A DNA stretch of 61,784 bases, counting the filler, from Sphacelaria rigidula (lineage: Eukaryota), in the NCBI GenBank assembly GCA_964200075.2. It is 11 parts of 11 records of this genome, joined end to end, with 100 filler letters (N's around TTAATTAATTAA, not from the genome) between each part and the next. Parts side by side here need not be neighbours in the genome. Positions count along the whole stretch, not along the records: positions 39,384 to 44,909 come from CAXNAA020026621.1; 10 more parts are not named here. One strand, 5' to 3'. The position numbers were made by a program, and so were the translations under genes. The notes below the pieces were generated by a model that worked only from the letters and a program-made list of their open reading frames with translations, was not told where the DNA came from and ran no database searches. Of the stretch, positions 16,880 to 57,013 are shown piece by piece. Within the stretch, counting starts at the first letter, position 1. Each line of letters starts with the position of its first letter.

Positions 16880-16954
16880 GCTCCGTCTCGAAAGGGATGC
16901 GTGGTCAATGGTCAAACGACTAAGGCAAGCAACAAATGAGTACGCCCCCCCCCC
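16880..16954 (+). mobile_element. Family B LINE 3' fragment with C tract
   Basis: GCTCCGTCTCGAAAGGGATGCG…AAATGAGTACGCCCCCCCCCC. Confidence 0.85.
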
Positions 16955-20300: not shown

Positions 20301-20792
20301 CTTCACGCAAATCGAAATAAAAATAGCCAAGCACAACGAGCAGCTAGGAATTCCTACGCTTGGGTCCGTTCTCGCCAATGTCGCCCATATGAAACGCTTC
20401 AAGCAGCCTGAACCCGAACACCAGACGCTCTAAGGCCATTTTCTTCGGAACACTTTGGGGCTGGTTTTGAGGGGCTATCGTAGAAAGTGTCAGCTTAGGG
20501 TAAAATGTGACATGGCCTCGTCTTCAGGGACGGCCAACGTGGGTGGTTAGCGGCTTGTGAAAACGGGGAGTCTTGAAGTATGTAGGATTTTGGTGTAGAT
20601 GAATATCCAAAGAACATATTTCGTTGCTGTATTGACATCGTATGCTCGTACATGCGCCGCATATTTTTGCACCTGATGTGGACCTCAAAGCAGTTATGCG
20701 CATGCAGCACAAGATCCATCACAGGGCGTGAATCGTCAAGTGATTGGATTTGAATAATTTTTTCGGGTAGTTAGCTCAGGGTCAAAGCAACC

Positions 20793-20842
<50 letters not shown>

Positions 20843-22359
20843 TGCCACTGCCCCGCCCCATCCTTTGCCCGCCCTTTCGCCCACTGCGCGGGGGGGGGGN
20901 NNNNNNNNNAAACCCACCCAGGGGGGGAATCGTCAAGTTGGTTGGTTTTAAATATTTTTTTGGGGTGTTTGGCCCGGGTCAAAACCACCCCCCCCCCCCC
21001 CCCCCCCCCCGATCCCCGATCCCCGATCGAAAGTTCATGTATTCGGAACGATTCCACATTGGCGCAATACCTCGCGCCGAATTGGAGAGGGAGGAGGAAA
21101 CAACATTGCATGCACGTGTTTCAGGAAGCAAGTTCGGGGTCGCCACTGTTTTGATCGGGTGGATTTTTCGATCGGGTCGAGCTGTTATTTTGGGCTAATG
21201 AACCGGCAGGATTGGCCGTGATCCGTATAAATTCGAGGAACAACGTAGATTTTTTCGTCAAACCTACCCGCGGGGTCCCGATTGTTGGGAGACGAAGCTC
21301 AACCCCTTGGCCACAAGGGTAGTTCATCTAGATCACGCATAATTGATGCCGGCTCAACAGATTATCTACTCTCGCCCTCAAAGGATTAACGCACTCGTTC
21401 CTGACGGTGAACCCGAGGTTGCCAGTGTCTGAGTGGTCGCAGTTTTGGTCGGTTTCACGGCGTGAGAAGCCGCCTGAAATCGCCCGAAACCCCAGATTCC
21501 TCGGAGCAATTCCACCTCCACATATAATCTTCCGCCGTTTTCAATAAACAGAGTTTTGCACAGGTGCAGTTGAGGGGGAGGGGGGGGGGATACTCATTCG
21601 TTGCTTGCCCTATTCGTTTGGTCATCGGCCACGCATCCGTGACGAGACGGAGCTCAGGTGTGGTCGGAATCGGTCTTATTCGTCTCTTTGGATCATGAGC
21701 CGCTGGGTATGACCGGGGACCTCAGATGATGGGTGAAACAGACCAAACACTTGGATCACGTCGACACGAGCTACCACAAGTCCGCCCTCAGGAATACATG
21801 TGTTAAATGTCGTCCACTAGTCCTTAAAATCGGGGTTATGGTTGCCTGTTGGCTTTTTTTTGTGTGTCACATTAGTTGGCCTGTGTATCTTCTACGACAT
21901 GGCTGTATCTCCTACGCCCGGGATATCAATTTTTATCTGTTCCTTTTTTTCTTTTCTGCACTGTTTTTTCTTGGCTCGCTCCATTTCCATCTTCGGTCGT
22001 CGTGCTTTCGTGTATGTGTGTGATTCCATTTTTATTTTTTCGATTTTTTTTTGTCGCACTTTGAACCCCCCCCCCCTTGCTCGGGTCGAGTCCGTGGTCT
22101 CGAGGGATCAATCCATCTCTCCCCAGGTATACGCCTTGCAAATTCGTCTCGTGGATTGGGTCAGCACTCCCGCACTGCGGCAACTCACGTCAAACAAACG
22201 TACTCGACTACTACTCATCGTGTTGATTTCATTCACTGTATTTTGTATTATTTGCAGCACCTGGTGGAAGCAGGCCAGATGGATCTGCCTGAGCTACCCC
22301 CACGAAAAAAGCTGTTCGAAGACCCTCTGGACAAGGACTTCCTCAAGGCCCGTCAGATG
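17360..22359 (+). CDS. Phox homology (PX) domain protein with an upstream coiled coil; partial, exons 17360-17706, 19044-19254, 22258-22359
   Basis: Canonical AG/GT sites with matching phases. The spliced product reads …WTIERRYSDFVYLHE|HLVEAGQMDLPELPPRKKLFEDPLDKDFLKARQ, matching the PX RRYSDF..LH…PxLPxK…F…R signature. Confidence 0.9.
18111..18662. mobile_element. Tc1/mariner-type (Stowaway-like) MITE in an intron
   Basis: TIRs CAATAGTGGGCGGTCTAACTA / TAGTTACCCCGCCCACTACTG, flanked by TA on both sides. A second copy lies at 48059-48560. Confidence 0.85.
19826..19940. repeat. Short inverted-repeat element; related units at about 3213-3385 and 52445-52490
   Basis: GACAAAAAAATGTACTGCGTAAAGTATAGACCTATTGCA … TGCAGTAGGCCTACACTTGACGCAGTACATTTTTTTTTGTC. 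Confidence 0.65.
21574..21653 (-). mobile_element. Family B LINE 3' fragment (reverse orientation)
   Basis: G tract followed by ATACTCATTCGTTGCTTGCC…CACGCATCC…CGAGACGGAGC. Confidence 0.8.
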
Positions 22360-27929: not shown

Positions 27930-27967
<38 letters not shown>

Positions 27968-28187
27968 CCCCCCCCCCCCGCCGACCCCCGGGGACCCCCC
28001 CGGGGCGGGGGGCCGGGGGCGGGCCCTCGGCNNNNNNNNNNNNNNNNNNNNNNNNNNNNNNNNNNNNNNNNNNNNTTAATTAATTAANNNNNNNNNNNNN
28101 NNNNNNNNNNNNNNNNNNNNNNNNNNNNNNNGTTGTGGTGGGGGGCGCTCCAGCGTGCAGAGGGGTGAGGGCGTGCGGGCGGCGGGT

Positions 28188-28223
<36 letters not shown>

Positions 28224-28901
28224 CGTACTCATAAATAAAAGCACCTATAGGTGAGGGTTTCCGCAAAGATTTGATGCTTCAGTGGCTGAATAAGTGTATT
28301 AAATGGAATGGGATGCACAGGGAGTATGCCCGGGTGGGATTTGGCTCGTGCTGGGGTGTATTTGTTTGTGTCGCTCCTGCCTGTTGTTTCGATTGTGGGC
28401 GTCGTTTTTGTCGCCAGCCCCCATCCCGGTTGCGTTGGATGGATGGACGAGCTTTGGTGTATGTGGCACCAGATTTTGCACTAAAAGTGAGAAAAAATGC
28501 GACGAGATGGTGGGATATAGTAAAGGGGGGGCTATGATGTGCACTTTTCCGCGGGAACATGATACATTTGGCCTACATGGGGGTTACCATACGGCTGGAG
28601 CTGCTGTCAGGGGATGTGTAACTGTACGTGCGGTCTCTGGCTTGAACCTTGGCTGTGCGCGAAACGAAAATAAATCAGCCCCTATAGTTATACTCTCTCC
28701 AAAGTCACTGGAACCGTGAAATATGCACTGATGGAATGACGAGGTTGCGCAGAAAAACTGACGCGGCCCGACCTCATCATCGTGCATTCCGGGGTAATGG
28801 TAGAATTGCGTGCGCCACGAGCAAGAGCAGCAAAACTGGCAAAGCCGGCAAACAGCACAGTGCGTCTCTGAAGTCGCCCGACCTCTGTTTTTCCTGGACA
28901 G

Positions 28902-31900
28902 GGTTTCGAAAGCGCGGACGTCACTGGATGGCAGAAGTTCGATGTGAGCCAGTCCCTCAGCACCGGCCAGATCGTGGCGGGCGTCGGCATCATTATGCAG
29001 GGGACTGGTTCGGGTGCTACGGGGTTCTCACTGCTAGATGCTCGATTCGAGGGTGAAATCGTGGCTAATCCCACCGATGTTTTCACTGTGAGTTTTTATG
29101 TTCTGTTCTTGCTTGATGATAGGAAAGGACCTCAAGTGTTCTAGGTACACTCGATTTTTCACGATGAGGTAGTAGATCGGGCGCGATGTCAGATTCTACG
29201 GTATAGACCACGGGTGATTCGTACGCGCACGTCCTTGAGCTCTGCTACGTTGTTGACCGTCACCTTGCACGAATGATGATATATCTATCACTGTCTGTAT
29301 GTACTCATCATACATGTCTTCGGTGCTGACTCGTATATGGTGTAATGGTAGCCTGTTGTTCCCGTGCCAATTTTCACGGTTTCATCTCCTTTTTTGGTGC
29401 AACATATATACCTAGGTCGGCAGCGCACGCATAGAGGGGTGGACCGGCGGCAGATACCCCGATTTTGTGGGATCAGGGACCGGCGACCAGCAGGCCATCC
29501 AGGCTGCGATCTGCGCGGTGAAGAAGGCTTCTTTCGATGGCGTCGACTGTGTAGGAGGCGATCCCGACGCTACCGGGACGGTAAGATTTGGCTTCAACCA
29601 CGCCACTGCGGTAGTGTTTCACTCAAGAACGGTGCTGCGGGAGGCGTTATGTTGCTCGACTGAGTGGATGGATCTCATCCTTGATGATGACCCAGTAAAT
29701 CGCACGGTATGGATTCAAATGGACGTTCAATAATGTGAGGAGACTAGCGTGTCACCGAACGGCACCTGAAGCTGCGGTAGTTGTGCCGGGTTCATTTTTG
29801 CGCCGAGGGTAAATTCTTACTCCGGAGCCCACCCACACTATCATTTAGAAGCCGGTGTCGGCGACGTTCCAGGTGGTCCGGTGAAACAGTTCTTAACGAT
29901 GAAACCAGAGCTGTTTTTTCAACGGGGACAGGTGAAACAGATTCAATCAACCATATTTTGCGAGATCGTGTAGTAAACTGTCTCGCTTTAATTTCACTTG
30001 GAACACTCGACTTACAGCAGCCTCAAGTGTGGATGCTCCCGAATAAGCGCACAGCAAGTTGATGAGCTTACGAACAGAAGGGTGGAAGTTACACCTTTTC
30101 GATCGGGAAGGTTGCACGCGGGTAGCGTTTCGTGGTTGTCAGTGCATTGAAGTGTAACTCGACTGGTTGGATAATGCGAATGTTCCCGGCGTAAAGGTGG
30201 ATGCCTGTCGAGGTCAAGGATTCCCTGATATTCCTCGAAGGTCGACATGCCAACTACGTGTCAAATGGCTACGCTGCGTCTGTTCTTCTGCGTATGTTAC
30301 TCGAAACACGAACGTTTTGCCTGTCGTCTTTTTCGTGCGTATCAGGTGGAGCTATCCATGGGGAGCTACTACATTGACGGGAACATCTTCCTCAAGTCTG
30401 GTGTCCACCTCGAGGGCCAGTAAGAACATCTGTAACACCCTGTGCTTCGACTGCCATGAAACGGATTAGTCGTGTTGTTGTTCACTCCCAGTCACGGGGC
30501 CGGATACATGCGTTGAAGTCAAATTTCAAGTCACAACCGTATATTGGACAAGCCCTGGACATAAGTCCCGCTTGGCGCCATGTAGGCGCCCCGGCCGTTG
30601 TGCATGACGTCACTTTTTCGTGAAAAAGAAACAGACGGGACCTATGCAGGAAGTTGTGCAAAATGTAGGCTCATGTCCACAGCGGATTACTCCACTTGTT
30701 TTGTGATAATTTGAACACTGATAGCGGCCGCTCCTCCTGTGCAGCAGTGCAGTCTAATGTTTACTGGGTGAAGGAGGTATAGGTTTTTTTTCAAATATGT
30801 GCCGGTGTCCATGGGGTACGTTTCTTGTAGATAGGAGTCGGGTACGCATTGGGTGCGTCTTCCGGTTGTGTGACACAGACGTCGCGATCGAGACAGATAG
30901 CAAATCCGAACTGCAGTTCTTGCGGGCGATTTCAACACCCCAAGACAACGTACACTATAGCACATCTTGTTGGCTCGTCTTGTGCTCTTGACTCTGCACG
31001 CGCTCGGGAGAAAAAAGATGCTTCCCTCCCGACCCCGTGGAATTAAAGGGATGCAAAGACCTCCCGTGCATTGCAGATGCACTCCGTCAGTTCAAGCAAA
31101 ACTGTGGCATTCGTTGTCATGACCATATTGTACTATCATCCACACCCCGTGCTCCGTCTCGAAAAGGATGCGTGGTCAATGATCAAACGATCAAGGCAGG
31201 CAACAAATGAGTATGCCCCCTTACCCCCTCCCTCGAAAAACGATGGTTACACTAGGAGATAGATGGTGGCCACAGACGGCGAAACAGGACGGGGATAAGA
31301 TACGTAAAAGGTTTCTGTGCAATGTATGGAAGGTGCGACGAGCAATCAATCAATCATTCAATCAAATCAAGGAAGAAACGTAATGAGCGCCGGAATGTTG
31401 AAGGTGTCTCTACTATGAGCAGGAACGGTACTCCGTCTCGAGAGGGATGCGTGGTCAAAGGTCAAACGACTAAGGCAAGCAACAGATGAGTACGCCACCC
31501 CCCCCCCCAATTTCACCCCCTGCTCGTGCTTCGCCTACATTTTCCCCGCCCTCGCCCCACCTTTCACAACATTAGGTTTTCTATCGACGACGCCCCGAAC
31601 GAGACGCGCTTCATCTTGGAAGAAGGCGCTGGAGGCAAAACCGACGTGGCAGCTATGGTTGTGATCGACGGGGTGACCAATGCAATTGTGAGTGAAGTAT
31701 CTTGAGTTTGGCTATTGCTTGTGTCATAATCGTCGTTAAAGCAAGCGGGCTAGATTCGTCTTTTCTTGGCCTTTGTTTTTTTCAAGTGTCTCCGGTGTCG
31801 CAGGCCGGTTGGTCATCCTCTTTTTTGCCTCGTGATTAGTTGCCCACGGTACAGGATAGGTTTATCCATTGGATTAGTGCAGCAAACGATTCCGTTGACG

Positions 31901-33496: not shown

Positions 33497-33657
33497 CCCC
33501 CCCCCCCCTCCGAACTATACACGGAGGAACGGGACGTGCTAGAGGGGGAAATACGGGACGTGAACAAACGTGGCATGAAATCGTGTGTAGGGAGAAAACG
33601 ATGGCTATACTAGGGGATAGATGGTGGCCAGAGACGGCGAAACAGGACGGAGATAAA
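33497..33657 (+). mobile_element. 5'-truncated family B LINE fragment preceded by poly(C), cut by the contig end
   Basis: Encodes …REKTMAILGDRWWPETAKQDGDK, the same peptide as 41803-42085. Confidence 0.8.
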
Positions 33658-33757: not shown

Positions 33758-33915
33758 CACGGCGCTTCGCGCTTCGTGATTGAGTGCGAGCCTGGTCCGG
33801 CGAAAACCCGGCGAGCTCCGTCCCGGCTTTGTAGGGATACCAGGTCAATGGTCTCATTACTATGGCATCCATAATCATGAGAACACCCCTCCTGCCCCCC
33901 CCTTTCCCCCCTCCC
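33758..33915 (+). mobile_element. Family A element 3' portion with C tract
   Basis: …CCTGGTCCGGCGAAAACCCGGCGAGCTCCGTCCCGGCTTTGTAGGGATACCAGGTCAATGG…ATCATGAGAACACCCC. Confidence 0.85.
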
Positions 33916-38383: not shown

Positions 38384-39927
38384 CTGTGGTATTGATGTAG
38401 TATGGAGAGGGCGGGGGTGGGTGTCAATTCTGGGCCCCCAACAATACAAAAGTCAAAAGTCGTACATGTACAGGCTGGTTCACGTTGATCACCCGGAAAA
38501 CACTCATCGGCAAAACCTCACGCCGTTTGAAGGAGTTAGACCGTGAAATTTTGCACGAATATTCTATGGATAATTACACAACTTTCGAAGTTTTTTCCTT
38601 GTTGACTTTTTTCACCGTTTTTCGGGGGTCCCAGTTTTTGGGGGAAACCTCGACCCGATCGAACCCCCGTGAAACGTAAAGCGGGAACAAATAAAAAAAA
38701 ACGTTCATCCAAAGTTGCGTAATGTTCCAAAGCGCAGTTGTGCAGAATTTCAGAGTCTAACTCCTTAAATCGGCGTGAGATTTTCGCTTTTGTGCGATGA
38801 ACTTTGCCGTGCCGCGGTGAAACCGCAAACTACTTGATTTTAGTACCAAAACGGCGTTTTTGGGCCTTCGTTGACGTGAACATGGAAATTCAAGCATCAG
38901 TTGATCAAGTTTTGCGACGACAATTTTTGGAGCCCATCCTTGGGTTATGCGGAGGCAGATAATTCGCGAAAAAATGAAAAAAAATATCGTAGTGCCGTTT
39001 TTCTGGGGTCTCAGAATGGAGACTACTTCGAAAAACGACTTCGATCCTGTCGGACCCCCGAAAAACGGTGGAAAACTCGAGAAGTAAAAAATATCGTCCG
39101 TAGAAATTTGCATAATCATACATACCATATTTATACAAAGTTTCAGGTTTTAACTCCTAATGACAGCGTGAAAGTTTGCGCGTTTGTGGAGGACGTGGGC
39201 TTGAAACGTGCGACTCCTAACTACTTGGTTTGAGTATAGAAACGTCTTTTGCGGTGAATTTGACGTCAAAAAAAAAAAAATTGNNNNNNNNNNNNNNNNN
39301 NNNNNNNNNNNNNNNNNNNNNNNNNNNTTAATTAATTAANNNNNNNNNNNNNNNNNNNNNNNNNNNNNNNNNNNNNNNNNNNNGGCCAAGGGTCAAACGA
39401 CCAAGGAAACAAAAAAAATTAAACCCCCCCTTCCCCCCCCCCCCCCAAAAGAGTGATATTTTTGGTGTGGTTGCCCCGGATATTTTCACCCTCCGACCGC
39501 GGGTCTGAAGAAAGGGCTGAAACGACTTGTTTAAAAAGGAAGTCTACTTGGCGACGAACAGTCGGAAAGAATGACATGAATAATTTCAACGGTCAAAAGC
39601 TTTTTCAGAAATCCCGGTTCTGTGACAAATGATGGAGCTTGTTTGCGAGTAAGTGACTCATTTTGATTCCTGGCCATATCCCGATTCCACACGCGTGGAT
39701 GCCCCTCTTTTTCCAACAGCAGCTTGTGCTTTTGTCAGTTATTATCCAGGGGGACAGCTGTTGGCATCTGAGCACACACAACAATATACGGCGAATTTTG
39801 CGTAGTCCTCCGACTTGATACGCACACATCGTCCGTCTTACGCGGAACCTGCTATGTGCTCCTTTTTTTCGTTCTTTGGGCCTCTTGCGTCATCCACGTA
39901 ACGTACTTCTAGCTAAAAAAAACATAC

Positions 39928-41183
39928 CAAGGGTAGGTCGAGTAGAGTATACTCAATACTCAGTATTTTTGAACACTCATACTTTTAGTACTCGAAGTTT
40001 GATTAGAGTATTTGAGATCATACTCAACGTACCCAAAATTTGAGTAGAGTATTTGAGGTCGTACTCAACGTACTCAAAATTTGAGTAGAGTAACGAGGTC
40101 ATACTCGAGCGATACTCTATACTCAAGTATTACTGAGAGTGCTTACTCAATATTTGAGTAGAGTATTTGAGGTCGAACTCGATCTACTTGAAATTTTTCA
40201 TAAAGTATTGGAGCCTGTACTCAACGTACTCAAAATTCGGGTAGGGTATTTGAGCCCGTACTCAACGTACTCAAAATTTGAGTAGAGTATTTGAGCCCGT
40301 ACTCTTCGTACTCAAAATTTGGGTAGGGTATTTGAGGCCGTACTCGACCTACTCAAAACCTGAATAGAGTATCGAAGGCCGGGTCCGATGTACCAAAACC
40401 TATAACTTTAACGTCTTCCTTCCTCTGGCGACTGTTGCGATGTTTTCCCGTCTTGCACTGTTTACACCGCTGAGTCACATATGTGGCCAGTAGAGTCGCT
40501 CATTTTGATAGTACCTACTCGACTACTCGTCTATTCGATTACTNNNNNNNNNNCCATAATGATGAGTAGCGCTCTGTACTGAAAGTAATATCGAAGGCGT
40601 TGCGAGGTATCGAGTATGAACTGCCGTGTGTGGGGGCTGGTGAGATGGTGCGCTGGGACAGGTACAGTAGGTTCATTCACCTGCACGCTTTTTTATTTTT
40701 TTATGGCCATCGTTCGCCCATGCATTCAACATAGTCTGTAAAGTGAGGTCACGAAGTCGCCGACGGTCAGGGGTACTCACCATACTCAGGCGATACTCTA
40801 TATTCAAGTATTACCGAGAGTGCTTACTCAATATTTGAGTAGAGTATCTGAGGTCATACTCGATCTACCCAAAAATTTAGTAGAGTATTTGAGGCCGTAC
40901 TCGACGTACTCACAATTTGAGTAGAGCATTTGGGATCATACTCAACGTACTCAAAATTTGAGTAGAGTATCCTGGTCATACTCAAGTGATACTCTATACT
41001 CGAGTATTGCTGAGAGTGCTTACTCAATATTTGAGTAGAGTATTTGAGGTCGTACTCGACGTACTCAAATTTTGAGTAGAGTATTTGAGGCCGTACTCGA
41101 CCTACTCAAACGTCGAGTAGAGTAAATACTTGAGTATTTTACTCGAGTACTCTAAAGTACATACTCTACTCGACCTACCATTG
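39928..41183. mobile_element. hAT-type non-autonomous element (MITE) built largely from 41-bp palindromic repeats
   Basis: 23-bp TIR CAAGGGTAGGTCGAGTAGAGTAT / ATACTCTACTCGACCTACCATTG (1 mismatch). Exact 8-bp TSD AAACATAC at 39920-39927 and 41184-41191. Confidence 0.92.
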
Positions 41184-41315
41184 AAACATACCCCGATGCG
41201 TCCCAACTTGCACCCTGTGTTGTTGAAGTTCTGTAGCCCTTCCTTCTTTTCGTGACTGCTTTTACCGGGTGCGCCGCTTTTTCTTTTTCTTTTTTTCTTT
41301 ATCTCCGAAAATAAG

Positions 41316-44097
41316 GTTCGGTCTGAGGAGTCAAGCTCGGACTCGGAAGGCAGCGACACGTCATCTGCAGGCTTCAACATGATGGGGCTACTGGGTCAAG
41401 CGATGTACGTCTTGATATCCGCAGCTGCTGTGGGCATGGGGTCGGGCTTGCTCATCTCTCGGCTGCTGAAGACCCTCGACATGAAAGAGAGCCCGGTGCG
41501 GCAGACAGCTATCCTCATGCTGGGCGGATACTTATCTTTCAGGCAAGCTGTTTTCTCCACCCTTCTTTGCGTCCCTTACGTTCTTCATTTTTTTCCCTCG
41601 CCCTGTACGAAAACTCTTGGCCGGATGAAGCTCACCCTTGATGCGAGTCGCCTAACACATCACGGCGCTTCGCCTTTGGTGATTGATTGCGAGCCTGGTC
41701 TGGTGAATTCCTGGCGTGCTCCGTCCCGGCTTTGAAGGGGTGCGAGGTCGATGCTCTCATGACTATGACAGGCAAGATCATGAGTTTTCCCCCCTCCCCT
41801 CCCAACGTGAACGAAGATATCATGAAATCGTTTGCAGCATTGGATAGTAGGGAGAAAACAATAGCTATACTAGGAGATGGATGGTGGCCACAGAAAGCGA
41901 AACAGGACGGGGATAAGATATGTCGAAGGTTTTTGTGTAATGCATGGAAGAAACGTTTTGAGCGTCGGAATGTTGGAGATGTCTCTTTTAGGAGTAGGAA
42001 CGGTGCTCCGTCTCAAAAGTAATGCGTGGTCAATGGTCAAACGACGAAGGCAAACAACAAATGAGTACCGTCCCCCCCCACCCCATTTCTTCCCTTCCTC
42101 CGGACGAGTCGTTATTCGCGAGAGAGAGTGAAAGGAACCCAAGTTTCCCCCAAGGTCCGAATCTACCTCCTGACCTGATTTTGTTTTGATGAGGTTCGAT
42201 TGGAACAGCACGCCTGCGCAACCTGTCGACTCTCAGTCGATTTTTGTTGTGCTAATCACGTTTTCACGCTGTCCCTGGTGGAAAATAAGCACATTCTACG
42301 CGGTAAGACCATGTCTGTCGGGGTTCCAACTGGTAGCCTCCCGCTCTGAAGTTTCGGCTGTTTGTGTACTAGATGGACCACTGAGGCACGGGCACGTTGT
42401 GCGGTATCTTGGTCACATTCACCCGATATAATATTTGTTGTTGCAAGGTCGTGATCTATATTCAATACTGTCGTTTGGGGGGGGGGGTTTCTGTTATGTT
42501 TCTCGGAGAGAAAGTGACATGATATATATATATATATATATCCGTTTCGCTCCACGTCACGACTTGAGCTACCCCGAGGATGTCCTATGTTTTTTGTTCT
42601 TGTTTTTCTCATTATGCTTCTCTGTTGTTGCCCCCCTCCCCCTCCCCGCCCGCACGCCGGCCTGCCCCCATCAACACTGAACGCTTTTCATTCCTCTCCC
42701 TAATCAGTTTGAGTGAAGCGTTGGATCTTTCTGGAATCCTTGCCGTGTTTTTCTGCGGGCTAACACTCAGTCACTACGCGTGGCACGCTCTGGGGGATGA
42801 CGCTCGGGTATGTGATGGTATACTTTCAGTTTTGCACGGTGTAAAGTTAAACTTCGATACTGTGGAATAGGTGATTATGTGCACGTGCACATGAGGTATA
42901 CAACTGTACCATGGGAGGTATATGTACGCATGGCCCGCTCTGCGGCATGGCGCACAATTGCGTTGCGAATTTATTAGTAATGCAAAAGTACGAAAGTGGA
43001 TATACCTGTTTTTTAGGTGGCTCGGTACATACACACATAAGGTACAGGTGTATCATGGGATATTCACTCATGATGTGCTCTGGGGAATGACGCACGGTTA
43101 TGTGGTCTCAGTATCAGTATTGAAGATTACAAAATTGGATACCTTTTTCTTCTAGGTAGCTCTGTACGTACACACAAAAGGGGTACATGTGCACCAATGG
43201 GGTGCTGTATGTACGTATGCCATGCTCCGGGAATGATTGCACGGTTTGACGTCATGATATTATTCGTGTTGGGGGCAGGCTTGGATGAATACCTTTACTG
43301 TAGGGCTGCTGTACACATGCACGCAAAAGTTTCCGTACGGTGCTGCGCGGTACAACCACTGTCTGCCTTGTGCGTACCCGCCGAGTTTTCGATAGATATA
43401 TTGGTTCATGCATATTTACTGTGAAGGCTGTTCACTCAAGGATCGGAACTACAGGTTGGTACTAAAAATTAGTCGTCAATCCTGACGCTAACCCCAACTT
43501 AGGCGTACCGAGAACCCTCGGGCAAAGGACGTGCGTGGGGTTCCCTAGGCAAAGCGTGGCGTTTGTAATCCCCAAATCGGCGCCACGAAACCGCGTTCTG
43601 CGCACACTGAGAGCACACGGGACTGTCAAGCCCCACTAAAGATACTCTTCTCGGTGTCCACACTCAAATCAGGTAATGCCAACCATGGAATAGATTATAG
43701 CCCAGCTCCGGTTCACTCTAGTGTTGTTTTCGATATGGTGGATAATGACATGAAAATATATGTAGCACTCCGCTCCCCCCCTCCCTCCCCCCCCTTCCCC
43801 CCTCCGTATTTTGTCGCCAACAACACATAATTTGGTCTACGGCATGCGAGAAACCTAGATATGAACCCACCATGACCACTGATGGGTTGGTGTTGAGGTG
43901 TTTGCCCACGTCTCTCTCTTTCTTGCTTCTCCCCTTTTTAATAAACAGGTTGCGTCTAAGATCACTTCTGAAACGTTGAGCATGATCGCCGAGGCGTACT
44001 GTTTCGCCGCGATCGGGTTGAGCGTACACGAATTTGACGCCAGCCAGTGGTGCTGGGGATTCATCGTGGTGATGATCTTCGTGCTCATGATTGCAAG
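41316..44097 (+). CDS. NHX: Na+/H+ exchanger, CPA1 (NHX/NHE) family; partial, exons 41316-41542, 42708-42807, 43949-44097
   Basis: The spliced product …GYLSFS|LSEALDLSGILAVFFCGLTLSHYAWHALGDDAR|VASKITSETLSMIAEAYCFAAIG… matches the NHX AE..LSGI..VFFCG…SHY.WH motif. Confidence 0.92.
41615..41802 (+). mobile_element. 5'-truncated family A element in an NHX intron
   Basis: Matches the 3' third of 45010-45627 (reverse complement); ends ATCATGAGTTTTCCCCC. Confidence 0.85.
41803..42085 (+). mobile_element. Family B LINE 3' fragment directly following the C tract of the family A copy
   Basis: Encodes DSREKTIAILGDGWWPQKAKQDGDKICRRFLCNAWKKRFERRNVG…RNGAPS; ends AAATGAGTACCGTCCCCCCCC. Confidence 0.85.
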
Positions 44098-45009: not shown

Positions 45010-45627
45010 GGGGGGGGCTCATGATCATGCATGCCATCACCCGCCCGGGGGGGAAGGGGGACTCATGGCCATGCATGTCACAGTCATCAGACCATTGACC
45101 TCGCATCCCTACAACCGGAACGGAACCGGAACGGAGCACGCCGGGTTTTCGCCGGACCAGGCTCGCACTCAATCACCGAGCGCGAAGCGCCGTGGTGTGT
45201 TCGGCGAGTCGCATTAAGGGTGAGCCGCATCCTGCCACGATTTTTCGGCCCGAAGCCTACTGATTTATCTTGCATTTGGATGACAGCTCACAGTGAGTTG
45301 CTTTATTTTCTGATATCGCCACTTTCTGAGAGAGCCACGGCTTATACGCTGCGTCATGGGTGCCTCACCATTGTAACACGACGTGGTACGATCATCTTCA
45401 TTGTGCGGAGTTGAGGTTCTCCCACGCCGACAACATGATCTAGCTCGACCACCATCATGCTTACCGCAAAAAAAAAGGTAATTTGGTTGCCTAGCTTTCG
45501 CAGTGAGTGGCGCGTTTTATAGCGTCATCGCCAACAGACACCAACCCCATCGGAGGTCCGCCCCTACAAAGCCGGGACGGAGCACGCCGGGTTCTCGCCA
45601 GACCAGGCTGACCCGCCCGGGGGGGGG
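45010..45627 (-). mobile_element. Full-length family A non-autonomous element with terminal direct repeats, flanked by G tracts
   Basis: Direct repeat CCCTACAA…GGAGCACGCCGGGTT(T/C)TCGCC(G/A)GACCAGGCT at about 45107-45163 and 45562-45609. The tail is homologous to family B. Confidence 0.88.
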
Positions 45628-47329
45628 TCATGTGAGGAACGCTTCAAGCTTTTAAAAATGACATTTTTCTCCGCGAAGCAAGGTCAAGCCATCGGTTTTC
45701 GGGACAATATGTACGATTCCTTCATCCGGTTGGGATAACAACCCCCAGCTCCACTGCGCCAATGACGTTTTGTTCGCGGCGTTCTCATCGTCAAGCGGAT
45801 CTGTTGAACGGCACGTTTTCTCCTAGTTGGTAACGAGGAACAAGGAACGCTTCGCTGAAGAATTTCCGCGTTTGCCCCGAGACTTGTGTGCCGCAGGGCA
45901 ACACATTTCTCGTGAACCGATAACTTTGTAGGTTGCCCTCGTCTTGGTCACAGATTCATTTTCAACGCGAAAATCGTGATCACGCAAGCGGAAACTCGTG
46001 GAGTCAAAAGTTCAGGGTGGGCTCTCTCTTTTCATTCGATACCTTGACGGCTTTGTGGCTAAGGGACTTTGCAAACCTGCAGTACACACAAGGAGGTCTA
46101 CAGTAACCCCCAATGCCACTGTCATTTCATCCTGGAGCAGCTGGGCGTCTCCCCACCATAACAGGTGTACTTACTGGCACAAAAGCGAAGCACAGGTAGC
46201 GTTAAGGCTCCTGGCATTGCACTTGGACCGTGCATTCTTATGTTCGAGGAAGGTGGTAGACTGTTCCGTAGGGCCAATTAACCAAAATACCACTCAGTCA
46301 GCGCTGACTCAGGGTACAAAAAACACGGTCTGAGGACATGTACACAGTTACCCTCCTTTTATCTTAGGTGTGTTGTATTCGGTGGTATGTCACGATACTC
46401 CCATATGCGAGCATACAACCAGCGGTGCTGTAGACGGATTTGAATGGTAAGCCACCCGTCTCCTCGAAAACGATGCCCGACGGGGCGTGCGAGATGGGCA
46501 ATAAAGTCTATCGCAACACTGGCGATACTCACTGGTAGCCCATCCCTGCGGCCGCAAAACAAAACGAACATCATTGGTTTCATCCCACGGCTTATGCAGC
46601 ACAACACGTCGACGCCGCAGTTGACAACCTAAAGAGCAAGCGCTCGAATTGGATACTCGTGTTCTGCCACTCTCTGACCATGGCTGGATGTCGCAGCGGC
46701 ACCCACCACTGTGTGTTACGTCGCGCACGTTGGCGACGTAACGCACAGCCAAGCACACTTTCATTGTCAGCAAGTATTTTGAACTGAATACCTCGTGCGC
46801 TACGATACATGATGGAGCTACTGGGTCTACAATAGACTTGAATTATCAAGCGAACGGTCCAGTTTCCACCTCCCTCCGCGTGTTGTCCTTCCAGACCATT
46901 ATATGCGTGCATTCGTGGTTCACAGGGTGCTTGAAAATATTCCGAAGACTTTCGAAGAGCGTGACAAATCGTGCGGATCATTGAGTATGTGAGGCAGCCG
47001 GCCGGCGTATGTACACCGGCGTAGGCACGGTGCCAGAACCGGCCTGCAGCGTAGATTCAGTTCCACATTACATTGTGCAGACCCGCCGGTTCGATCAGCG
47101 CCATTCTTATTCCAGTGGACCCCTTCCTCCAAAGCTCTTGCCGTAACGAGAGCAAATGCATCATGTTGGTATCGTAGGCTTGGGGCTTGGGGGCAGTCTT
47201 CACGTGCCGCTACAGTCTCTACCGCAAAATGCGCTCAACCAAAGTCGAGATGCGTCAAAGATTGGATCTCCCAAAGTTTTGTTGAGCATGTAAATTATTT
47301 TTACAATTAGTCACCTGACAGAAAGTATT

Positions 47330-48058
47330 GAAGGGCAAGTCGAGTTGAGTATACTCAATACTCGGTATTTTCGAAAAGTAACACTATTAGGCCAACGCTA
47401 ATGGGAGACGTTCAAACCTCCTGTCGAAAACTGCCTTTTGGGCCCTCCTCCATCGATTTACACCCGGAAGGAGGGCTAGGCGGATGTTGACGCCTTGGAA
47501 TGACTTGCTGTACTCGTTGAGGCCGTTCTAGGGCAACGTTTCATGTCCCGCTGGCCGCATTATTATTTGTGGCCAAATGAGGCTAAACACGGATTTTCAG
47601 TGAAAAACGGTCAGGTGATCAAAATTTCCTGCTGTTTTTCGATTGATTGACCGGTTTTGTTGAAAATCCGTGTTCGGCCAAAAATGAACGTGCGGCCAGC
47701 GGGAAATGCAATTTTGCACTGAAACGGCCTCAATGAGTAGTGCAAGTCATTCCAAGGCGTGAACATTTGCCTAGCCCTCTTTTCGGGCGTAAAACGACGA
47801 AGAGGGACCAAAGAAGCAGTTTTGAGGAGGAATTTTGAACGGCTCCCATTGGAGTCGGTCTTAGTACCCAAAATTTGAGTAGAGTATTCGAGGACATTCT
47901 CTACTTTAAATTCGAGGAGAGTATTGAGGTCAAACCCAAGTGATACTCAACACTCAAGAATTACTGAGAGTACGTACCCAATATTTGAGTAGAGTATTTC
48001 AGGTCATACTCCATCTACGCAGAGTTGGAGTAGAGTATTTGAGATTATACTTTATCTA
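47330..48058. mobile_element. Old, degenerate copy of the hAT-type MITE, interrupted by other MITEs
   Basis: GAAGGGCAAGTCGAGTTGAGTATACTC resembles the left TIR; the 41-bp units resume at 47864. Confidence 0.7.
47390..47860. mobile_element. PIF/Harbinger (Tourist-like) MITE, foldback over almost its whole length
   Basis: TTA TSD at 47387-47389 and 47861-47863; termini GGCCAACGCTAATGGGAGACGTTCAAA / TTTGAACGGCTCCCATTGGAGTCGGTC. Confidence 0.85.
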
Positions 48059-49516: not shown

Positions 49517-50534
49517 CAAGGGTAGGTCGAGTAGAGTATACTCAGTATTTTTGAAGAGTCATACTTTTCAGTACTCGAAGTTTGAGTAGAGTATTTGAGG
49601 TCGTACTCAACCTACTCAATTATTCGAGTAGTTATTTGAGATCATACTCAGTCTACTCGAAATCTGAGTAGAGTATTGGGGTCATACTCAAGTGATACTC
49701 TATACTCAAGTATTACTGAGAGTGCTTACTCGATATTCGAGTATAGTATTTGAAGTCGTACTCGATCTACTCAAAATTTGAGTAAAATAATGGAGGCCGT
49801 AGTCAACGAACTCCAAATTTGAGGAGAGTATTTGAGGCCATACTCAACGTACTCCAAATTTGAGAAGAGTATTAGAGGCCGTTCTCGACCTACTCAAAAT
49901 CTGAGTAGAGTATCTGAGGTCGGATCTGATGTACCGAAAACCCATAACTTCAACTTCAGTATTCAAGTTCGTACGCAAGACACTCAAACTCGGGTAGAGA
50001 AAATACCCAGGTATCCCTGGAGTTGCCCATCCATGATGAGTGTTGATTGAAGATCAAACTTCAGCAAACATTCGGATCAAAACCAAGTGGTACAAAACTA
50101 GGGTAGAATGGATGTTGTGGTGTTGTCGAAGGGCCCTGCACGTTTTTTTAATTTCTTTATGTCCATCATTCGCTCATGTATTCAACGTAGTCTGTGAAGT
50201 GACGTCACGAAGTCGCCGACTGTCAGCAATACTCGCCATACCCAAGGGGTAATCTATACTCAAGTATCACTGAGAGTGCTTACTCAATATTCGAGTAGAT
50301 TATTTGAGGTCGTACTCGACCTACTCAAAATTTGAGTAGAGTCTTTGAGGCCATGCTCGATCTACTCGAAATTTGAGTAGAGCACTGGGGTCATACTCAA
50401 GTGATACTCTATACTCAAGTATCACTGAGAGTGCTTACTCAATATTCGAGTAGAGTATTTGAGGTCGTACTCGACCTACTCAAAATTTGAGTAGAGTCTT
50501 TGAGGCCATGCTCGATCTACTCGAAATTTGAGTA
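49517..50534. mobile_element. hAT-type MITE copy, cut by the contig end
   Basis: Starts CAAGGGTAGGTCGAGTAGAGTATACTC; same 41-bp units and the same internal GTCACGAAGTCGCCGAC segment as 39928-41183. Confidence 0.88.
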
Positions 50535-54364: not shown

Positions 54365-54689
54365 GGTCGCCTCGGTGGCTTAGTTGGTGACGTGGAAACC
54401 CTGTGACGGCTGGGATGTGAGGGTTCGAATCTCGCTTGAGTCACACGATCTTGGATTCTGTTCTTCTCACATCATGCCCAACAGTGGAGAGTGGAGAGTG
54501 GAGAGTGACTAGGTCGCAGGTACACAAGGTTCGACTTCACCGTCGACGAGGGGAAGGGACCGTCGAACCCTTCTCGCGATGACAACCAAGTCAAGCACCG
54601 CAGAAGGAGGGTGGAGTGCTGGAATAAATTAAAAAAAACAAAAAACATCCTGTGTTGACCTATCGCCTGTGCGACCCTGGCTGATGCGG

Positions 54690-54744
<55 letters not shown>

Positions 54745-54787
54745 CGACAACGACAACAACAACAACAACGACAACGACAACAACAAA
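54365..54787 (+). mobile_element. tRNA-derived SINE with (AAC)n tail
   Basis: A box TGGCTTAGTTGG (54376-54387), B box GGTTCGAATCT (54422-54432), unique body, then (AAC)n at 54691-54787. Confidence 0.85.
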
Positions 54788-55683
54788 CAGTACAATTCGA
54801 CATTACAGCAAAGTAGTCGACTGAGTGTGGTTGACGTGAGTTGACGCGGCGCGGGAGTGCTGATAGTCATGACCCAAGCCGCGAGACCAAAATACGAGGC
54901 GTGTACTGGGGAGAGAAATGGGATGATCCCTTGAAACCACCGACTCGTTCCGGGAAGTGGAGGGGTTCAAAGTGCGACAAAAAAAATAATGATAATAAAT
55001 ATATAAAGCACAAGAGAATGTACTGGTCGCTGCGTATCATTGGAACTTTCCACGTGACGTCACCATCAACTTGCGACCGGGAGACCTAACTGTTACAGCG
55101 CGAGAGGTAGTCCATCTGAATCATTCATACTTTTTTCAACTGAAATTGATGTCAATTAGACAGATAATCTATTCTTGCCTTCGAAGGGTTAACCCCAACT
55201 CCGAATACTTTGGGCTGGACTCTTACTCTTACCCAGAATTACACCCTTATTCTGAAACGGGGGTGGGGGGCTGGCTCTGACATAATAAAAAAAGAAATAA
55301 AACTATGATATGGAGCCACCACTATATTTCTCTCATGTTTCTTCGACGTCTCTCTCTTGGTATTTTAATTCGGTGTTATTTCGTTTGTCTTTCCTTGGAG
55401 TCCCAGCAAAAAATCAGAGCCCCATCTCTTGTAAGGAAAAGGAGGGACGGCATCGGAATGACGGGCCTACATCTGTGACCTCGGCTTCAACAGATCGGGC
55501 TCATGTGTGGAAATAACAATAAAAATGAAAGATTATAATAGACATGAAGACGAACAACGCATCACCCGTACAGACATTGCAAGCAATTTGGCCTGCGAGA
55601 ATATTTCAACTGAGTTGGCTCACGCGGCTTTTCCGAGTCAACACAGTACACTTGCAACGTCCGCGGTTACCCACGTTGCATGA

Positions 55684-56095
55684 CGTTCTCAACTCCTGAT
55701 AGAGACACCTCCAACATTTTGGGCGCTCATTACGCTTCTTCCATACAAAACACATTACCCTTTTACAATTTTTATCCCCATCCTGTTTCGCCTATTGTGG
55801 CCACAATTCATTCTCTAATATACCCATCGTTTTCTCCCCACTCTCATGTACCAAACGATTTCATGCCACCTTCGTTCACTTCCCGCATTCCCCCCTCTAG
55901 CACGTCCCGTTCCTCCCTGTTCAGTTCACATTCTGCCGCTAAATGAGTTCTGCTCTCTATTGCTTTGCCACGGGGGCCATTCTGTGCATGTGCTTCCTTC
56001 ACTTCTTCTTTCTAGCATGTACAGGTCCCCCACCCGAAATAGCAGTTTCAATTTTGTCGCCGCGTCCACTGGGCCATGCAGACATATTTTCACGG
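55684..56095 (-). mobile_element. Longer degenerate family B LINE fragment (ORF2 C-terminal Cys/His region)
   Basis: The minus strand gives decayed LHGPVDAATKLKLLFRVGDL…ESRTHL..EC…EERDVLEG peptides, continuing into the REKT/ILG..WP region. Confidence 0.75.
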
Positions 56096-56259
56096 TTAGG
56101 ACAAATAATGATTCGTCAGGAAATTACTTGGTTTTAGTATAATACGTTGACTCGTGATGNNNNNNNNNNNNNNNNNNNNNNNNNNNNNNNNNNNNNNNNN
56201 NNNTTAATTAATTAANNNNNNNNNNNNNNNNNNNNNNNNNNNNNNNNNNNNNNNNNNNN

Positions 56260-56981
56260 AAATTATGAGCCATGCACTAGGTCCAAAAGGCGCGGGATGA
56301 CCATTCTGACCAATCACGGTCGTCAAAATAAGCACTTTTGCTACGGTATAAATAGACACCTAGTGGACACATTCGCTGTCTACCCTCATTACTCATTGAT
56401 CATTCCTAATCAACCACTGATTGTATAACCAACACGCAGGTGTTTGATCATCTTCGGTACACTGTTGTGTCTGTCTGTTTAGTACTGCCTGAGCGTCGTA
56501 CTAGCTCCACACCTCCATCTGGTATCAAACGTCATGGCGTAATACGCGAGCGGCGGCTAGAAGTACCCGACGCACGTAGATGTAGACAAGTACTTCGACG
56601 GTGAGGCGATCGCCATCGTCGAGCAATTGCTCTACGGTAGTCAGGGGCGTTCGCGGTGGTAGTCATAGTGCGATATCCAACGCATGCTGCGNNNNNNNNN
56701 NCTGTAAGATCTAGTATGCTGCAGACCGCACGTGCAGCCGCGGCACGATACACTACAGACTGCACAGCAATAATATGACGCGTAATAATCAAGTGGTGCA
56801 CAACCACACCACCGTCTGTGTTGTGACACAACTATGTACCTCCTATGCACTCCCGGTCTCTTCCGCCGTAGAGTAGGCGTTTTGAGTTGTGACAAAGAAA
56901 TGATTCTAACCCCAAAAAGCGTGGTGTCTACCTCAGTAAACCAGCTGGGGGTCGCTGTCTAAGGGTAACCCTTAGACAGCG

Positions 56982-57013
<32 letters not shown>

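What the first reader, a model, noticed from the sequence alone, without database searches (positions are those of the whole stretch)
41615..42085. A LINE and a non-coding partner element share a structured ~75-nt 3' terminus with structure-preserving changes
Seen: family B (LINE ORF2 C-terminus) ends GTGCTCCGTCTCG-AAAGGGATGCGTGGTCAATGGTCAAACGACTAAGGCAAGCAACAAATGAGTAC. Family A (~600 bp, no ORF, otherwise unrelated) ends GTGCTCCGTCCCGGCTTTGTAGGGATGCGAGGTCAATGGTCT(G/C)ATGACTATGGCATGCATGATCATGAGTAC. Both fold into the same multibranch structure. The closing stem is GTGCTC/GAGTAC. Hairpin 1 is CGTCYC/GGGATG, with a GAAA loop in B, a 9-nt loop in A, and a U-G to C-G change. Hairpin 2 is GGTC/GACT. 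Established: SINEs mobilised by stringent LINEs borrow the LINE 3' stem-loop. Inference: A is a non-autonomous parasite of B or a B-related LINE, recognised through this cloverleaf-like 3' RNA. Unlike usual SINEs it has no visible tRNA/5S Pol III head. About 15 fragments of A and B occur across 10 of the 11 contigs, so the system is very abundant.
Basis: partly seen in the sequence, partly recalled or inferred. Interest (0 to 1): 0.78.

Follow-up and report, generated by a model that had tools for sequence, protein, structure and literature searches.

The report
Brown-alga LINE and its non-coding hitchhiker
Two very abundant repeats in this brown-alga DNA, a LINE that encodes reverse transcriptase and a roughly 570-base non-coding hitchhiker, end in the same ~66-72-base tail plus a run of C; the pairing is real, but it was described for Ectocarpus in 2025.

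Summary
The sequence observation holds. Family B and family A share a 66-72-nt 3' end: 82% identity over 66 aligned columns, with nothing alike upstream. Every tail is followed by a C-run.

B is the 3' end of a single EN-RT LINE ORF. Its stop codon lies inside the tail, 4 nt before the end. A is about 560-594 nt, has no conserved ORF and has no tRNA/5S/7SL head.

The pair matches RTEX-N1_Ec32 (non-autonomous, ~600 bp) and the RTE-X LINEs RTEX-1/2_Ec32, published for Ectocarpus in PMC12477816. The matching features are the (C)n tail, C-rich target duplications, tandem copies and "60 bp 3' end 83%". The host here is a brown alga, but not one whose proteins are in the database (best exon identity 81%).

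The structural claim is only partly supported:
- The B consensus folds into the proposed three-helix shape.
- The A consensus does so in only about a third of the ensemble.
- Single copies fold no better than shuffles.
- 16 tails show one compensatory pair, which is not above shuffles.
- A/B differences do avoid the stems (2 of 40 against 10 of 26 columns).

A/B fragments lie in 8 of 11 pieces, not 10.

Verdict: real, ordinary and essentially already known. The tail fold is a plausible but unproven addition.

The parts
41608..41787 (+). Family A copy, 5'-truncated (about 180 nt); its shared tail is 41716-41787
   Evidence: BLAST to the full A copies at 78-79%; covariance-model hit at 41716-41787, E 2.9e-17
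41788..41804 (+). C-rich spacer, the (C)n-type tail of the A copy, into which or beside which the B copy sits
   Evidence: read directly
41805..42068 (+). Family B copy, 5'-truncated LINE 3' end. ORF C-terminus is 41822-42061; the shared tail is 42003-42068; the family's TGA stop falls at 42062-42064
   Evidence: tblastn to P0001 residues 1281-1360 at 72.5%; BLASTP E 6e-30; model hit E 5.6e-22
42069..42085 (+). C-run after the B tail
   Evidence: In run X1, 156 contig ends run on after 42068 into G plus a C-run
45047..45640 (-). Full-length A copy. The head at 45564-45609 repeats the 46 nt that open the 3' module at 45126-45163; tail is 45059-45139. Flanked on both sides by the same 15-nt C-rich stretch (target duplication)
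45010..45046 (-). Very short 5'-truncated A tail end plus a C-run, cut by the end of the piece
1961..2520 (-). Full-length A copy; head 2475-2519, tail 1971-2042
   Evidence: 76% identity to the 45-kb copy over 576 columns
2533..2609 (-). 5'-truncated A tail (about 55 nt) between two C-runs, head-to-tail with the full copy downstream
   Evidence: model hit E 1.9e-7
5483..5527 (+). A head, directly after a C10 run, cut by the end of piece 1
   Evidence: 98% identity to the head at 45563-45607
33758..33897 (+). A 3' part, cut by the start of piece 7; tail 33813-33884
9128..9193 (+). B tail only, followed by C-runs
16880..16943 (+). B tail, cut by the start of piece 4, followed by C10
21590..21655 (-). 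Diverged B-type tail followed by C10
31149..31214 (+). B tail, followed by a C-rich spacer and then the next B copy
31237..31493 (+). 5'-truncated B copy, head-to-tail with the tail before it; tail 31428-31493
33512..33657 (+). B ORF fragment, cut by the end of piece 6
55684..56099 (-). B ORF fragment (P0001 residues about 1195-1338) that stops just before the tail
39384..39446 (+). B-like tail variant at the start of piece 8; it keeps hairpin 2, has a different A-rich end, then C-runs
   Evidence: 85% identity to 42028-42061
41316..41542 (+). Host exon (Na+/H+ exchanger family). The A+B insert lies in the intron after it
   Evidence: brown-alga PF00999 proteins at 62-81% identity; a 3066-nt contig of run X6 covers only 41315-41542 (that X6 is RNA is a guess of the tool)

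Best explanation
B is the 3' end of an autonomous non-LTR retrotransposon. It has one ORF with an AP-type endonuclease and a reverse transcriptase, and it is most probably the RTE-X families described as RTEX-1/RTEX-2 in Ectocarpus, or their orthologues in a related brown alga. A is its non-autonomous partner, the counterpart of RTEX-N1_Ec32 and probably the old 'Sower' repeat.

Both RNAs end in the same 66-72-nt module plus a C-run. In the LINE this module also encodes the last ~21 residues and holds the stop codon.

Inferred mechanism (target-primed reverse transcription; inferred, not shown):
1. The LINE protein binds this 3' module (stringent-type recognition).
2. It nicks C/G-rich DNA.
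3. The C-run of the RNA pairs with the G-run of the nicked strand.
4. cDNA synthesis starts there.

A carries the module and is therefore copied in trans. Because the preferred targets look like the elements' own C tails, new copies land behind old tails. That gives the head-to-tail arrays and the frequent 5'-truncated copies seen here.

Whether the protein reads the three-helix fold or the primary sequence is open. I put the fold at about even odds.
For: LINE link:
- Four metagenome loci carry an open 345-codon frame that ends in the tail.
- Its full-length relatives P0001 and P0003 have EN and RT domains.
- L090 has the whole ORF (1068-5147), the tail (5086-5151) and a C13 run.
- The window's B copies match only residues 1166 and later of these proteins.

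Shared tail: 82% identity over 66 columns between the family majorities.

Tail under extra constraint:
- Among 6 B copies, tail identity is 86-97% against 63-91% for the 210 nt upstream (10 pairs without the gapped 31-kb copy).
- A/B differences fall on 2 of 40 paired against 10 of 26 unpaired columns, and all 6 indel columns lie in unpaired (loop or junction) columns (Fisher p 0.0009).
- Hairpin-2 loops vary while its stem is kept.
- In run X1 the majority letters of the family restore stem positions that this copy has lost: 41754, 42015, 42020-42021.

C tail and target:
- Every tail is followed by a C-run.
- 156 contig ends in X1 continue after 42068 into a C-run.
- The full A copy at 45047-45640 is flanked by the same 15-nt C-rich stretch on both sides.
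- There are four head-to-tail junctions: 41787/41805, 31214/31237, 2533/2520, 45047/45046.

Abundance: summed contig depth in the A/B bins is 10^4 to 10^5 times that of the unique flanks in 4 runs. The tool warns that this is not a copy number.

Literature (PMC12477816, passages and supplementary file 1):
- RTEX-N1_Ec32 is 604-607 bp and non-autonomous, with '60 bp 3' end 83% RTEX-1/RTEX-2', C-rich TSD, 'can be present in tandem' and '5' head unknown'.
- RTEX-1/2 are annotated as 'single EN-RT ORF; (C)n 3''.

Stringent LINE/SINE tail sharing in general: PMC3747384 (passages).
Against: - No mobilisation or binding experiment exists here; trans-mobilisation is inferred from the shared tail.
- I could not read the published consensus FASTA files. 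Identity of A and B with RTEX-N1 and RTEX-1/2 therefore rests on matching descriptions, not on an alignment.
- The host exon is at most 81% identical to any Ectocarpus protein found. The species differs from the published one, or the gene is an unannotated paralogue.
- Clade RTE-X was not tested (no Repbase library).
- The fold lacks support. There is no significant covariation. Single copies fold no better than shuffles. The consensus folds are only modestly better than mononucleotide shuffles (z -1.6, with 6-8% of shuffles as good). The A consensus prefers an alternative hairpin.
- The stem-versus-loop contrast is biased, because the structure was derived from the same conserved columns.
- The tail is coding in B, so part of its conservation could be at protein level.
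Confidence: 0.85

Rival explanations
1. The tail works as primary sequence plus C-run, and the three-helix fold is incidental. The complementary segments are conserved because the protein reads their bases, and in the LINE also because they code for the C-terminal peptide.
For: - No covariation above shuffles in 13 or 16 tails.
- z-scores of single copies run from -1.11 to +0.94.
- The A consensus puts only 0.33-0.39 probability on the closing stem and hairpin 2.
- The tail peptide is nearly invariant in P0001-P0004.
Against: - The B consensus folds into exactly this shape with pair probabilities of 0.81-0.99 for all but one pair.
- 92-94% of cells pair, against 22-49% when partners are slid by 1-3 columns.
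- Loop letters of hairpin 2 change freely, causing amino-acid changes, while the stem letters stay.
- A keeps the stems although it does not code.
Confidence: 0.4
2. A is not an independent SINE-like element but an internally deleted LINE: the LINE's extreme 5' end joined to its 3' end.
For: [quoted passage not shown]
- There is no Pol III head.
Against: - BLAST of both full A copies against L090 (1067 nt of 5' UTR, the ORF and the 3' end) finds only the tail, at E 6e-8 and 3e-9. One weak match (E 4e-4) lies after the LINE's C-run, outside the LINE.
- The A tail differs from the LINE tail at 12 of 66 columns plus 6 indel columns, consistently in 4 copies.
Confidence: 0.15
3. A is a small LTR/TRIM- or DIRS-type derivative. 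The 46-nt direct repeat at its head and near its 3' end would be the remains of terminal repeats, and the similarity to B would be a nested B fragment.
For: A 46-nt direct repeat sits at the head and about 470 nt further on, in both full copies.
Against: - The second repeat copy is followed by about 45 more nt of tail and a C-run, so it is not terminal.
- Copies are 5'-truncated to varying degrees and keep the 3' end (41608, 2588 and 45046), as target-primed reverse transcription gives.
- The target duplication is 15 nt and C-rich, not 4-5 nt.
- The family-specific tail differences recur in all A copies, so the tail is not a nested B insert.
Confidence: 0.02

Closest known systems
RTEX-N1_Ec32 with RTEX-1_Ec32 / RTEX-2_Ec32 (Ectocarpus; PMC12477816, Genome Biol 2025; passages and supplementary files 1 and 2 seen)
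   Same: - A partner of about 600 bp with an unknown head.
- A 3' end about 83% like that of the LINE (82% over 66 columns here).
- A LINE with a single EN-RT ORF.
- (C)n 3' ends, C-rich target duplications and tandem copies.
- Highest abundance among the repeats.
   Different: - The consensus sequences could not be read, so sequence identity is untested.
- The host here is a brown alga whose one tested exon is at most 81% identical to Ectocarpus proteins.
- The full copies here measure 560-594 nt without their C tail, against 604-607 bp.
- The paper's main text has no occurrence of stem-loop, hairpin or secondary structure, so the fold model and the stop codon inside the tail are not stated there.
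'Sower', the most abundant unclassified repeat of the first Ectocarpus genome analysis (PMC3145265, one passage seen)
   Same: It covers about 1.2% of the genome, ~2.5 Mb. That is the same total as RTEX-N1_Ec32, 2.48 Mb. It is short and unclassified.
   Different: No Sower sequence or description was available. The equation Sower = RTEX-N1 = family A is my inference from the matching totals.
Stringent-type LINE/SINE pairs such as eel UnaL2/UnaSINE1 (PMC3747384, passages seen; details of the eel work are recalled)
   Same: A LINE and a non-coding partner share a conserved 3' end that the LINE's RT is thought to recognise. A short repeat follows the conserved end.
   Different: - The eel tail is a single hairpin in a 3' UTR with TGTAA repeats, and it has been tested experimentally.
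- Here the module is coding in the LINE, has up to three helices, ends in a C-run and is untested.
- The partner has no tRNA-derived head.
Mammalian L1/Alu (relaxed type; PMC3747384 abstract and passages)
   Same: An autonomous LINE mobilises an abundant short non-coding element, and new copies often land in older tails.
   Different: L1 and Alu share only poly(A). Here about 70 nt of specific sequence is shared.

Membership tests
Non-LTR retrotransposon (LINE) with AP-endonuclease and RT | ORF with Exo_endo_phos and RVT_1 domains continuous with the repeat's 3' end | tested here: met
   P0001 has EN at 170-414 and RT at 740-989. The window's B aligns to P0001 residues 1281-1346. L090 has the full ORF running into the tail. 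The window itself holds no EN/RT coding: tblastn matches only residues 1166 and later, and there was no RVT_1 hit in 136 of 156 ORFs scanned.
Non-LTR retrotransposon (LINE) | 5' truncation with 3' ends kept, and variable target duplications | tested here: met
   B copies of 66 to about 415 nt and A copies of about 25 to 594 nt all keep the 3' end, except 55684-56099. One full A copy has a 15-nt duplication.
RTE-X clade | RT-domain phylogeny with Repbase RTE-X references | not testable with these tools
   No Repbase or Dfam library is on hand. The clade name is taken from PMC12477816 supplementary file 1 (best blastp RTEX-4_NV and RTEX-1_BF).
RTEX-1/2_Ec32 | Single EN-RT ORF, (C)n 3' end, length 5.5-5.9 kb | tested here: inconclusive
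   L090 has a single ORF and a C13 run. L090 is 5259 nt and lacks the extreme 5' end. No alignment to the consensus was possible.
RTEX-N1_Ec32 | About 600 bp, non-coding, with a 3' ~60 bp about 83% like the LINE | tested here: met
   Copies of 560 and 594 nt; no conserved ORF; 82% identity over 66 columns.
RTEX-N1_Ec32 | C-rich TSD and occurrence in tandem | tested here: met
RTEX-N1_Ec32 | Sequence identity to the published consensus | not testable with these tools
   The FASTA supplements are listed as unreadable.
SINE in the strict sense | Pol III head derived from tRNA, 5S or 7SL | tested here: not met
   ARAGORN finds 0 tRNA genes. Rfam gives 0 hits at gathering score on the whole window, and on the A copy only two chance-level hits at E about 2.
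Stringent-type LINE/SINE pair | Partner shares the LINE's specific 3' end | tested here: met
Stringent-type LINE/SINE pair | Conserved 3' stem-loop supported by compensatory changes | tested here: inconclusive
   92-94% of cells pair and slid controls give 22-49%, but only 1 pair is changed on both sides and this is not above shuffles.
Stringent-type LINE/SINE pair | The tail is required for retrotransposition | not testable with these tools
   Needs an assay.
Ribozyme-bearing retroelements (hammerhead, HDV-like) | Match to a ribozyme model | tested here: not met
   Rfam scans.
LTR / TRIM / DIRS derivative | Terminal repeats at both ends, a short fixed TSD or none | tested here: not met
   The 46-nt repeat is not terminal at the 3' side, and the TSD is 15 nt and C-rich.

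The most novel reading that the evidence does not exclude
The 3' module is a true structured recognition RNA, and the two ends of the elements communicate through it.

The partner's first 46 nt are a direct copy of the 5' half of its own 3' module: the 5' strand of the closing stem, the 5' strand and loop of hairpin 1, and 22 nt before them. The one LINE 5' UTR available (L090) holds a perfect 13-nt antisense match to the same tail segment.

If these are functional, the head could compete for or complete the tail helices. Possible roles are to bind the RT at both ends, to favour template switching that makes head-to-tail arrays, or to carry the promoter.
Probability: 0.1. Interest if true: 0.5.

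Novelty: already known. Interest (0 to 1): 0.2.

Why it matters
These two families are, by the published count, the most abundant repeats of Ectocarpus (RTE-X elements 3.41% of the genome; RTEX-N1 2.48 Mb). Here they sit at many ends of the 11 pieces that make up the window. They therefore shape assemblies and introns of brown algae.

What this check adds to the published description is small but testable:
- a concrete fold model for an RTE-X 3' module;
- the fact that the LINE's stop codon and last ~21 codons lie inside that module;
- stronger conservation of the module than of the neighbouring coding sequence;
- the repeat of the module's first 46 nt at the head of the partner.

None of this changes the picture of how LINE partners work.

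Tried and rejected
- No whole genome is held for the window.
- The metagenome loci could not be extended through the genome search because the records are not held.
- Pfam on 136 of the 156 stop-to-stop ORFs of 97 aa or more gave one chance-level hit and no RT. The 20 left out were nineteen of 97-101 aa and one of 114 aa at 25-366.
- The tail core pattern in viral contigs gave 1 chance match. In metagenome contigs it gave 88 stretches, of which only 4 are real B copies.
- The protein profile found nothing in viral contigs.
- The 516-aa ORF at 11494-13041 found no relatives at near lengths, so it did not help to name the host.
- Sequencing runs: no RNA holder is listed. Four runs are only guessed to be RNA, so expression of A or B is not assessed.
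- In one search all runs were contigs, so no starts, ends or strands of RNAs could be read. The many short joints inside 41877-42022 are other copies of the families, not alleles of this locus. No contig was seen that joins the flanks without the insert.
- Rfam at permissive E-values on the A copy and on the finding gave only chance-level hits.
- Earlier findings of this scan: nothing by place, sequence or words.
- Rejected: a hammerhead reading of the CTGATGA in some A tails. The motif is not conserved among copies and there is no Rfam hit.
- Rejected: an RTEX-N2 (188 bp) reading of 41608-41787. It aligns to the long A copies over all of its ~180-200 nt, not only over the last 100.
- A possible degenerate duplication flanks the whole A+B composite (41584-41607 against 42083-42106, about 16 of 22 letters alike; read). 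It is too low in complexity to count. It would fit either two successive insertions or one chimeric one.
Full report
**What the window is.** The 61,784 bases are 11 pieces of about 5,526 nt joined by N-TTAATTAATTAA-N spacers. Several pieces begin or end inside the repeats in question: 5527, 16880, 22405, 33657/33758, 39384 and 45010. One exon next to the finding (41316-41542) encodes part of a Na+/H+ exchanger. Its best relatives are brown-alga proteins: Ectocarpus sp. 12 at 81%, Ectocarpus sp. CCAP 1310/34 at 79%, Pylaiella at 79% and Scytosiphon at 71%. None is identical. The host is therefore a brown alga, but not one whose proteins are in the database, unless this gene is an unannotated paralogue.

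**The observation.**
- At the given coordinates lie a 5'-truncated A copy (41608-41787), a C-rich spacer, and a 5'-truncated B copy (41805-42068) followed by a C-run.
- An 11-nt core of the tail occurs 9 times at up to 1 mismatch, against 1.65 expected (0 of 100 shuffles reach 9).
- A covariance model of the tail, run with filters off, finds 11 tails in the window: 6 of type B, 4 full tails of type A and 1 truncated A.
- The majority tails of A and B are 82% identical over 66 ungapped columns, with 6 further indel columns. Upstream of the tail the families share nothing detectable.
- All in all I count about 16-17 A/B fragments in 8 of the 11 pieces, and none in pieces 3, 5 and 11.

**B is a LINE.**
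- The window itself holds no RT. No RVT_1 hit came from 136 of the 156 ORFs of 97 aa or more, and tblastn with the full-length relatives matches only residues 1166 and later.
- The link comes from outside the window. The tail pattern found 88 metagenome stretches, of which 4 are real B copies. They carry an open 345-codon frame that runs through the tail and stops at a TGA 4 nt before the element's last base.
- That frame has full-length relatives: P0001 (1360 aa) and P0003 (1328 aa), both with Exo_endo_phos and RVT_1, and a chimeric gene model from Ectocarpus sp. CCAP 1310/34.
- The window's B frame at 41792-42019 aligns to P0001 residues 1281-1346 at 71% identity, E 6e-30.
- One contig filed under a bacterial bin (L090, 5259 nt) holds the whole ORF (1068-5147), the tail (5086-5151), a G and 13 C.

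**A is a non-coding partner.**
- Two full copies (45047-45640 and 1961-2520, both on the minus strand) are 76% alike over 576 columns.
- The stop-free stretches on the sense strand are at most 83 and 66 codons, and they lie at different places.
- ARAGORN finds no tRNA. Rfam finds nothing at gathering score and only chance-level hits at E about 2 on the A copy.
- BLAST of A against L090 finds only the tail, plus one weak match that lies after the LINE's C-run and so outside the LINE.
- A feature I did not find described: the first 46 nt of A are a direct copy of the 46 nt that open its own 3' module. This is seen in both full copies and in a third head at 5483-5527.

**C tails, targets and tandems.**
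- Every tail is followed by a C-run.
- In run X1, 156 contig ends continue after 42068 into G plus a C-run.
- The full A copy at 45 kb is flanked on both sides by the same 15-nt C-rich stretch.
- Head-to-tail junctions occur four times: A then B at 41787/41805; B then B at 31214/31237; truncated A then full A at 2533/2520; and full A then truncated A at 45047/45046.
- Summed contig depth in the A/B bins is 10^4 to 10^5 times that of the unique flanks in all four runs laid. The tool warns that this is not a copy number.

**What is published.** The 2025 Ectocarpus transposon paper (PMC12477816; I read passages of the main text and supplementary files 1 and 2) describes:
- RTEX-1_Ec32 and RTEX-2_Ec32: RTE-X LINEs, 'single EN-RT ORF; (C)n 3'', C-rich TSD.
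- RTEX-N2_Ec32: a 188-bp element with a similar tail.

An older review (PMC3145265, one passage) says the unclassified repeat 'Sower' covers about 2.5 Mb. Sower is therefore probably the same element; that is my inference.

Every descriptive feature matches what I measured. I could not read the consensus FASTA files, so sequence identity is not shown. The main text of that paper has no occurrence of stem-loop, hairpin or secondary structure.

**The fold.**

For it:
- The B consensus has this fold as its minimum-energy structure (-17.3 kcal/mol) with pair probabilities of 0.81-0.99 for all but one pair.
- 92-94% of cells pair, against 22-49% when the 3' partners are slid by 1-3 columns.
- A/B differences fall on 2 of 40 paired and 10 of 26 unpaired columns (p 0.0009).
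- The loop of hairpin 2 varies among lineages while the stem is kept.
- The tail is more conserved (86-97%) than the 210 nt of ORF before it (63-91%; 10 pairs without the gapped 31-kb copy).
- The family majority restores stem letters that this particular copy has lost.

Against it:
- Only one pair is changed on both sides, in one sequence. That is no better than shuffles: 334 of 500 with 13 tails, 274 of 500 with 16.
- The alifold covariation term is -0.18 kcal/mol.
- Nine single copies have z-scores from -1.11 to +0.94, and only one has all three helices as its best fold.
- The consensus folds are only modestly better than mononucleotide shuffles (z about -1.6).
- The A consensus prefers an alternative hairpin, leaving 0.33-0.39 probability for the closing stem and hairpin 2.
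- The stem-versus-loop contrast is biased, because the structure was derived from the same conserved columns.
- Genomic copies decay neutrally, so only differences between master lineages are informative, and I had few of those.

It is also not refuted.

**Mechanism.** Shown here:
- a LINE with EN and RT;
- a shared 3' module;
- C-runs;
- one C-rich duplication;
- 5' truncations;
- tandems.

Inferred from what is established for stringent-type LINEs (PMC3747384, passages): the LINE protein binds the module, nicks C/G-rich DNA, primes on the RNA's C-run and copies the RNA. The partner is copied in trans, and old C tails are preferred targets.

**Verdict.** It is the pair already described in Ectocarpus, or its orthologue in a related brown alga, and its kind has been known since the 1990s. 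The fold model, the coding tail and the duplicated head are modest additions.

Noticed in passing
window 45564-45609 and 45126-45163 (-); 2475-2519 and 2025-2066 (-); 5483-5527 (+): The first 46 nt of the A element are a direct copy of the 46 nt that open its own 3' module (22 nt, then the 5' strand of the closing stem, then the 5' strand and loop of hairpin 1). Heads sit directly after C-runs. The published note calls the head 'unknown'.
   Followed up: partly
L090 508-520 against 5085-5097: The only LINE 5' UTR in hand has a perfect 13-nt antisense match to the start of the tail. About 0.2 such pairs are expected anywhere in a 5.3-kb element, so it may be chance. It could not be checked in a second LINE.
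   Followed up: partly
L090 1-186: Three tandem units of about 62 nt lie at the start of the LINE's 5' UTR. They are reminiscent of promoter monomers of other LINEs (a recalled comparison).
   Followed up: no
L090 (whole locus): A contig filed in a bin labelled as an uncultured bacterium is a eukaryotic LINE at 88% protein identity to P0001. This is contamination of the bin.
   Followed up: no
window 39988-41142, 47864-48055, 49571-50516: Arrays of a 41-nt unit rich in the palindromic words GTACTC/GAGTAC (30 units found). They lie directly upstream of the host exon next to the finding.
   Followed up: no
window 20722-20842 and 20919-21010; 56947-57012; 27931-27990; 28187-28260 (-): Other sequences that end in long C-runs (23-47 C). 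Two neighbouring 80%-alike copies end in a short GGGT...ACCC hairpin. One has a perfect 13-bp hairpin right before C31. One ends ...ATGAGTACGA plus C35, like the A/B terminus. They may be further (C)n-tailed families. Several lie beside N10 assembly gaps.
   Followed up: partly
window 55684-56099 (-): A B ORF fragment that stops exactly where the tail should start and continues with unrelated sequence. It is either a 3'-deleted copy or a LINE variant with another end.
   Followed up: no
window 39384-39446 (+): A tail variant that keeps hairpin 2 (with G-U changed to G-C) but ends in an A-rich stretch instead of the closing-stem strand, followed by C-runs.
   Followed up: partly
window 54673-54800: A long (CAA)n/(CAACGA)n tract. 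The Ectocarpus paper lists (CAA)n as the 3' end of its RTE-1/RTE-2 LINEs. I did not check whether an RTE end lies before it.
   Followed up: no
piece ends at 5527, 16880, 22405, 33657/33758, 39384, 45010: Six piece ends fall inside A or B copies or their C-runs, as expected if the assembly breaks at these repeats.
   Followed up: partly
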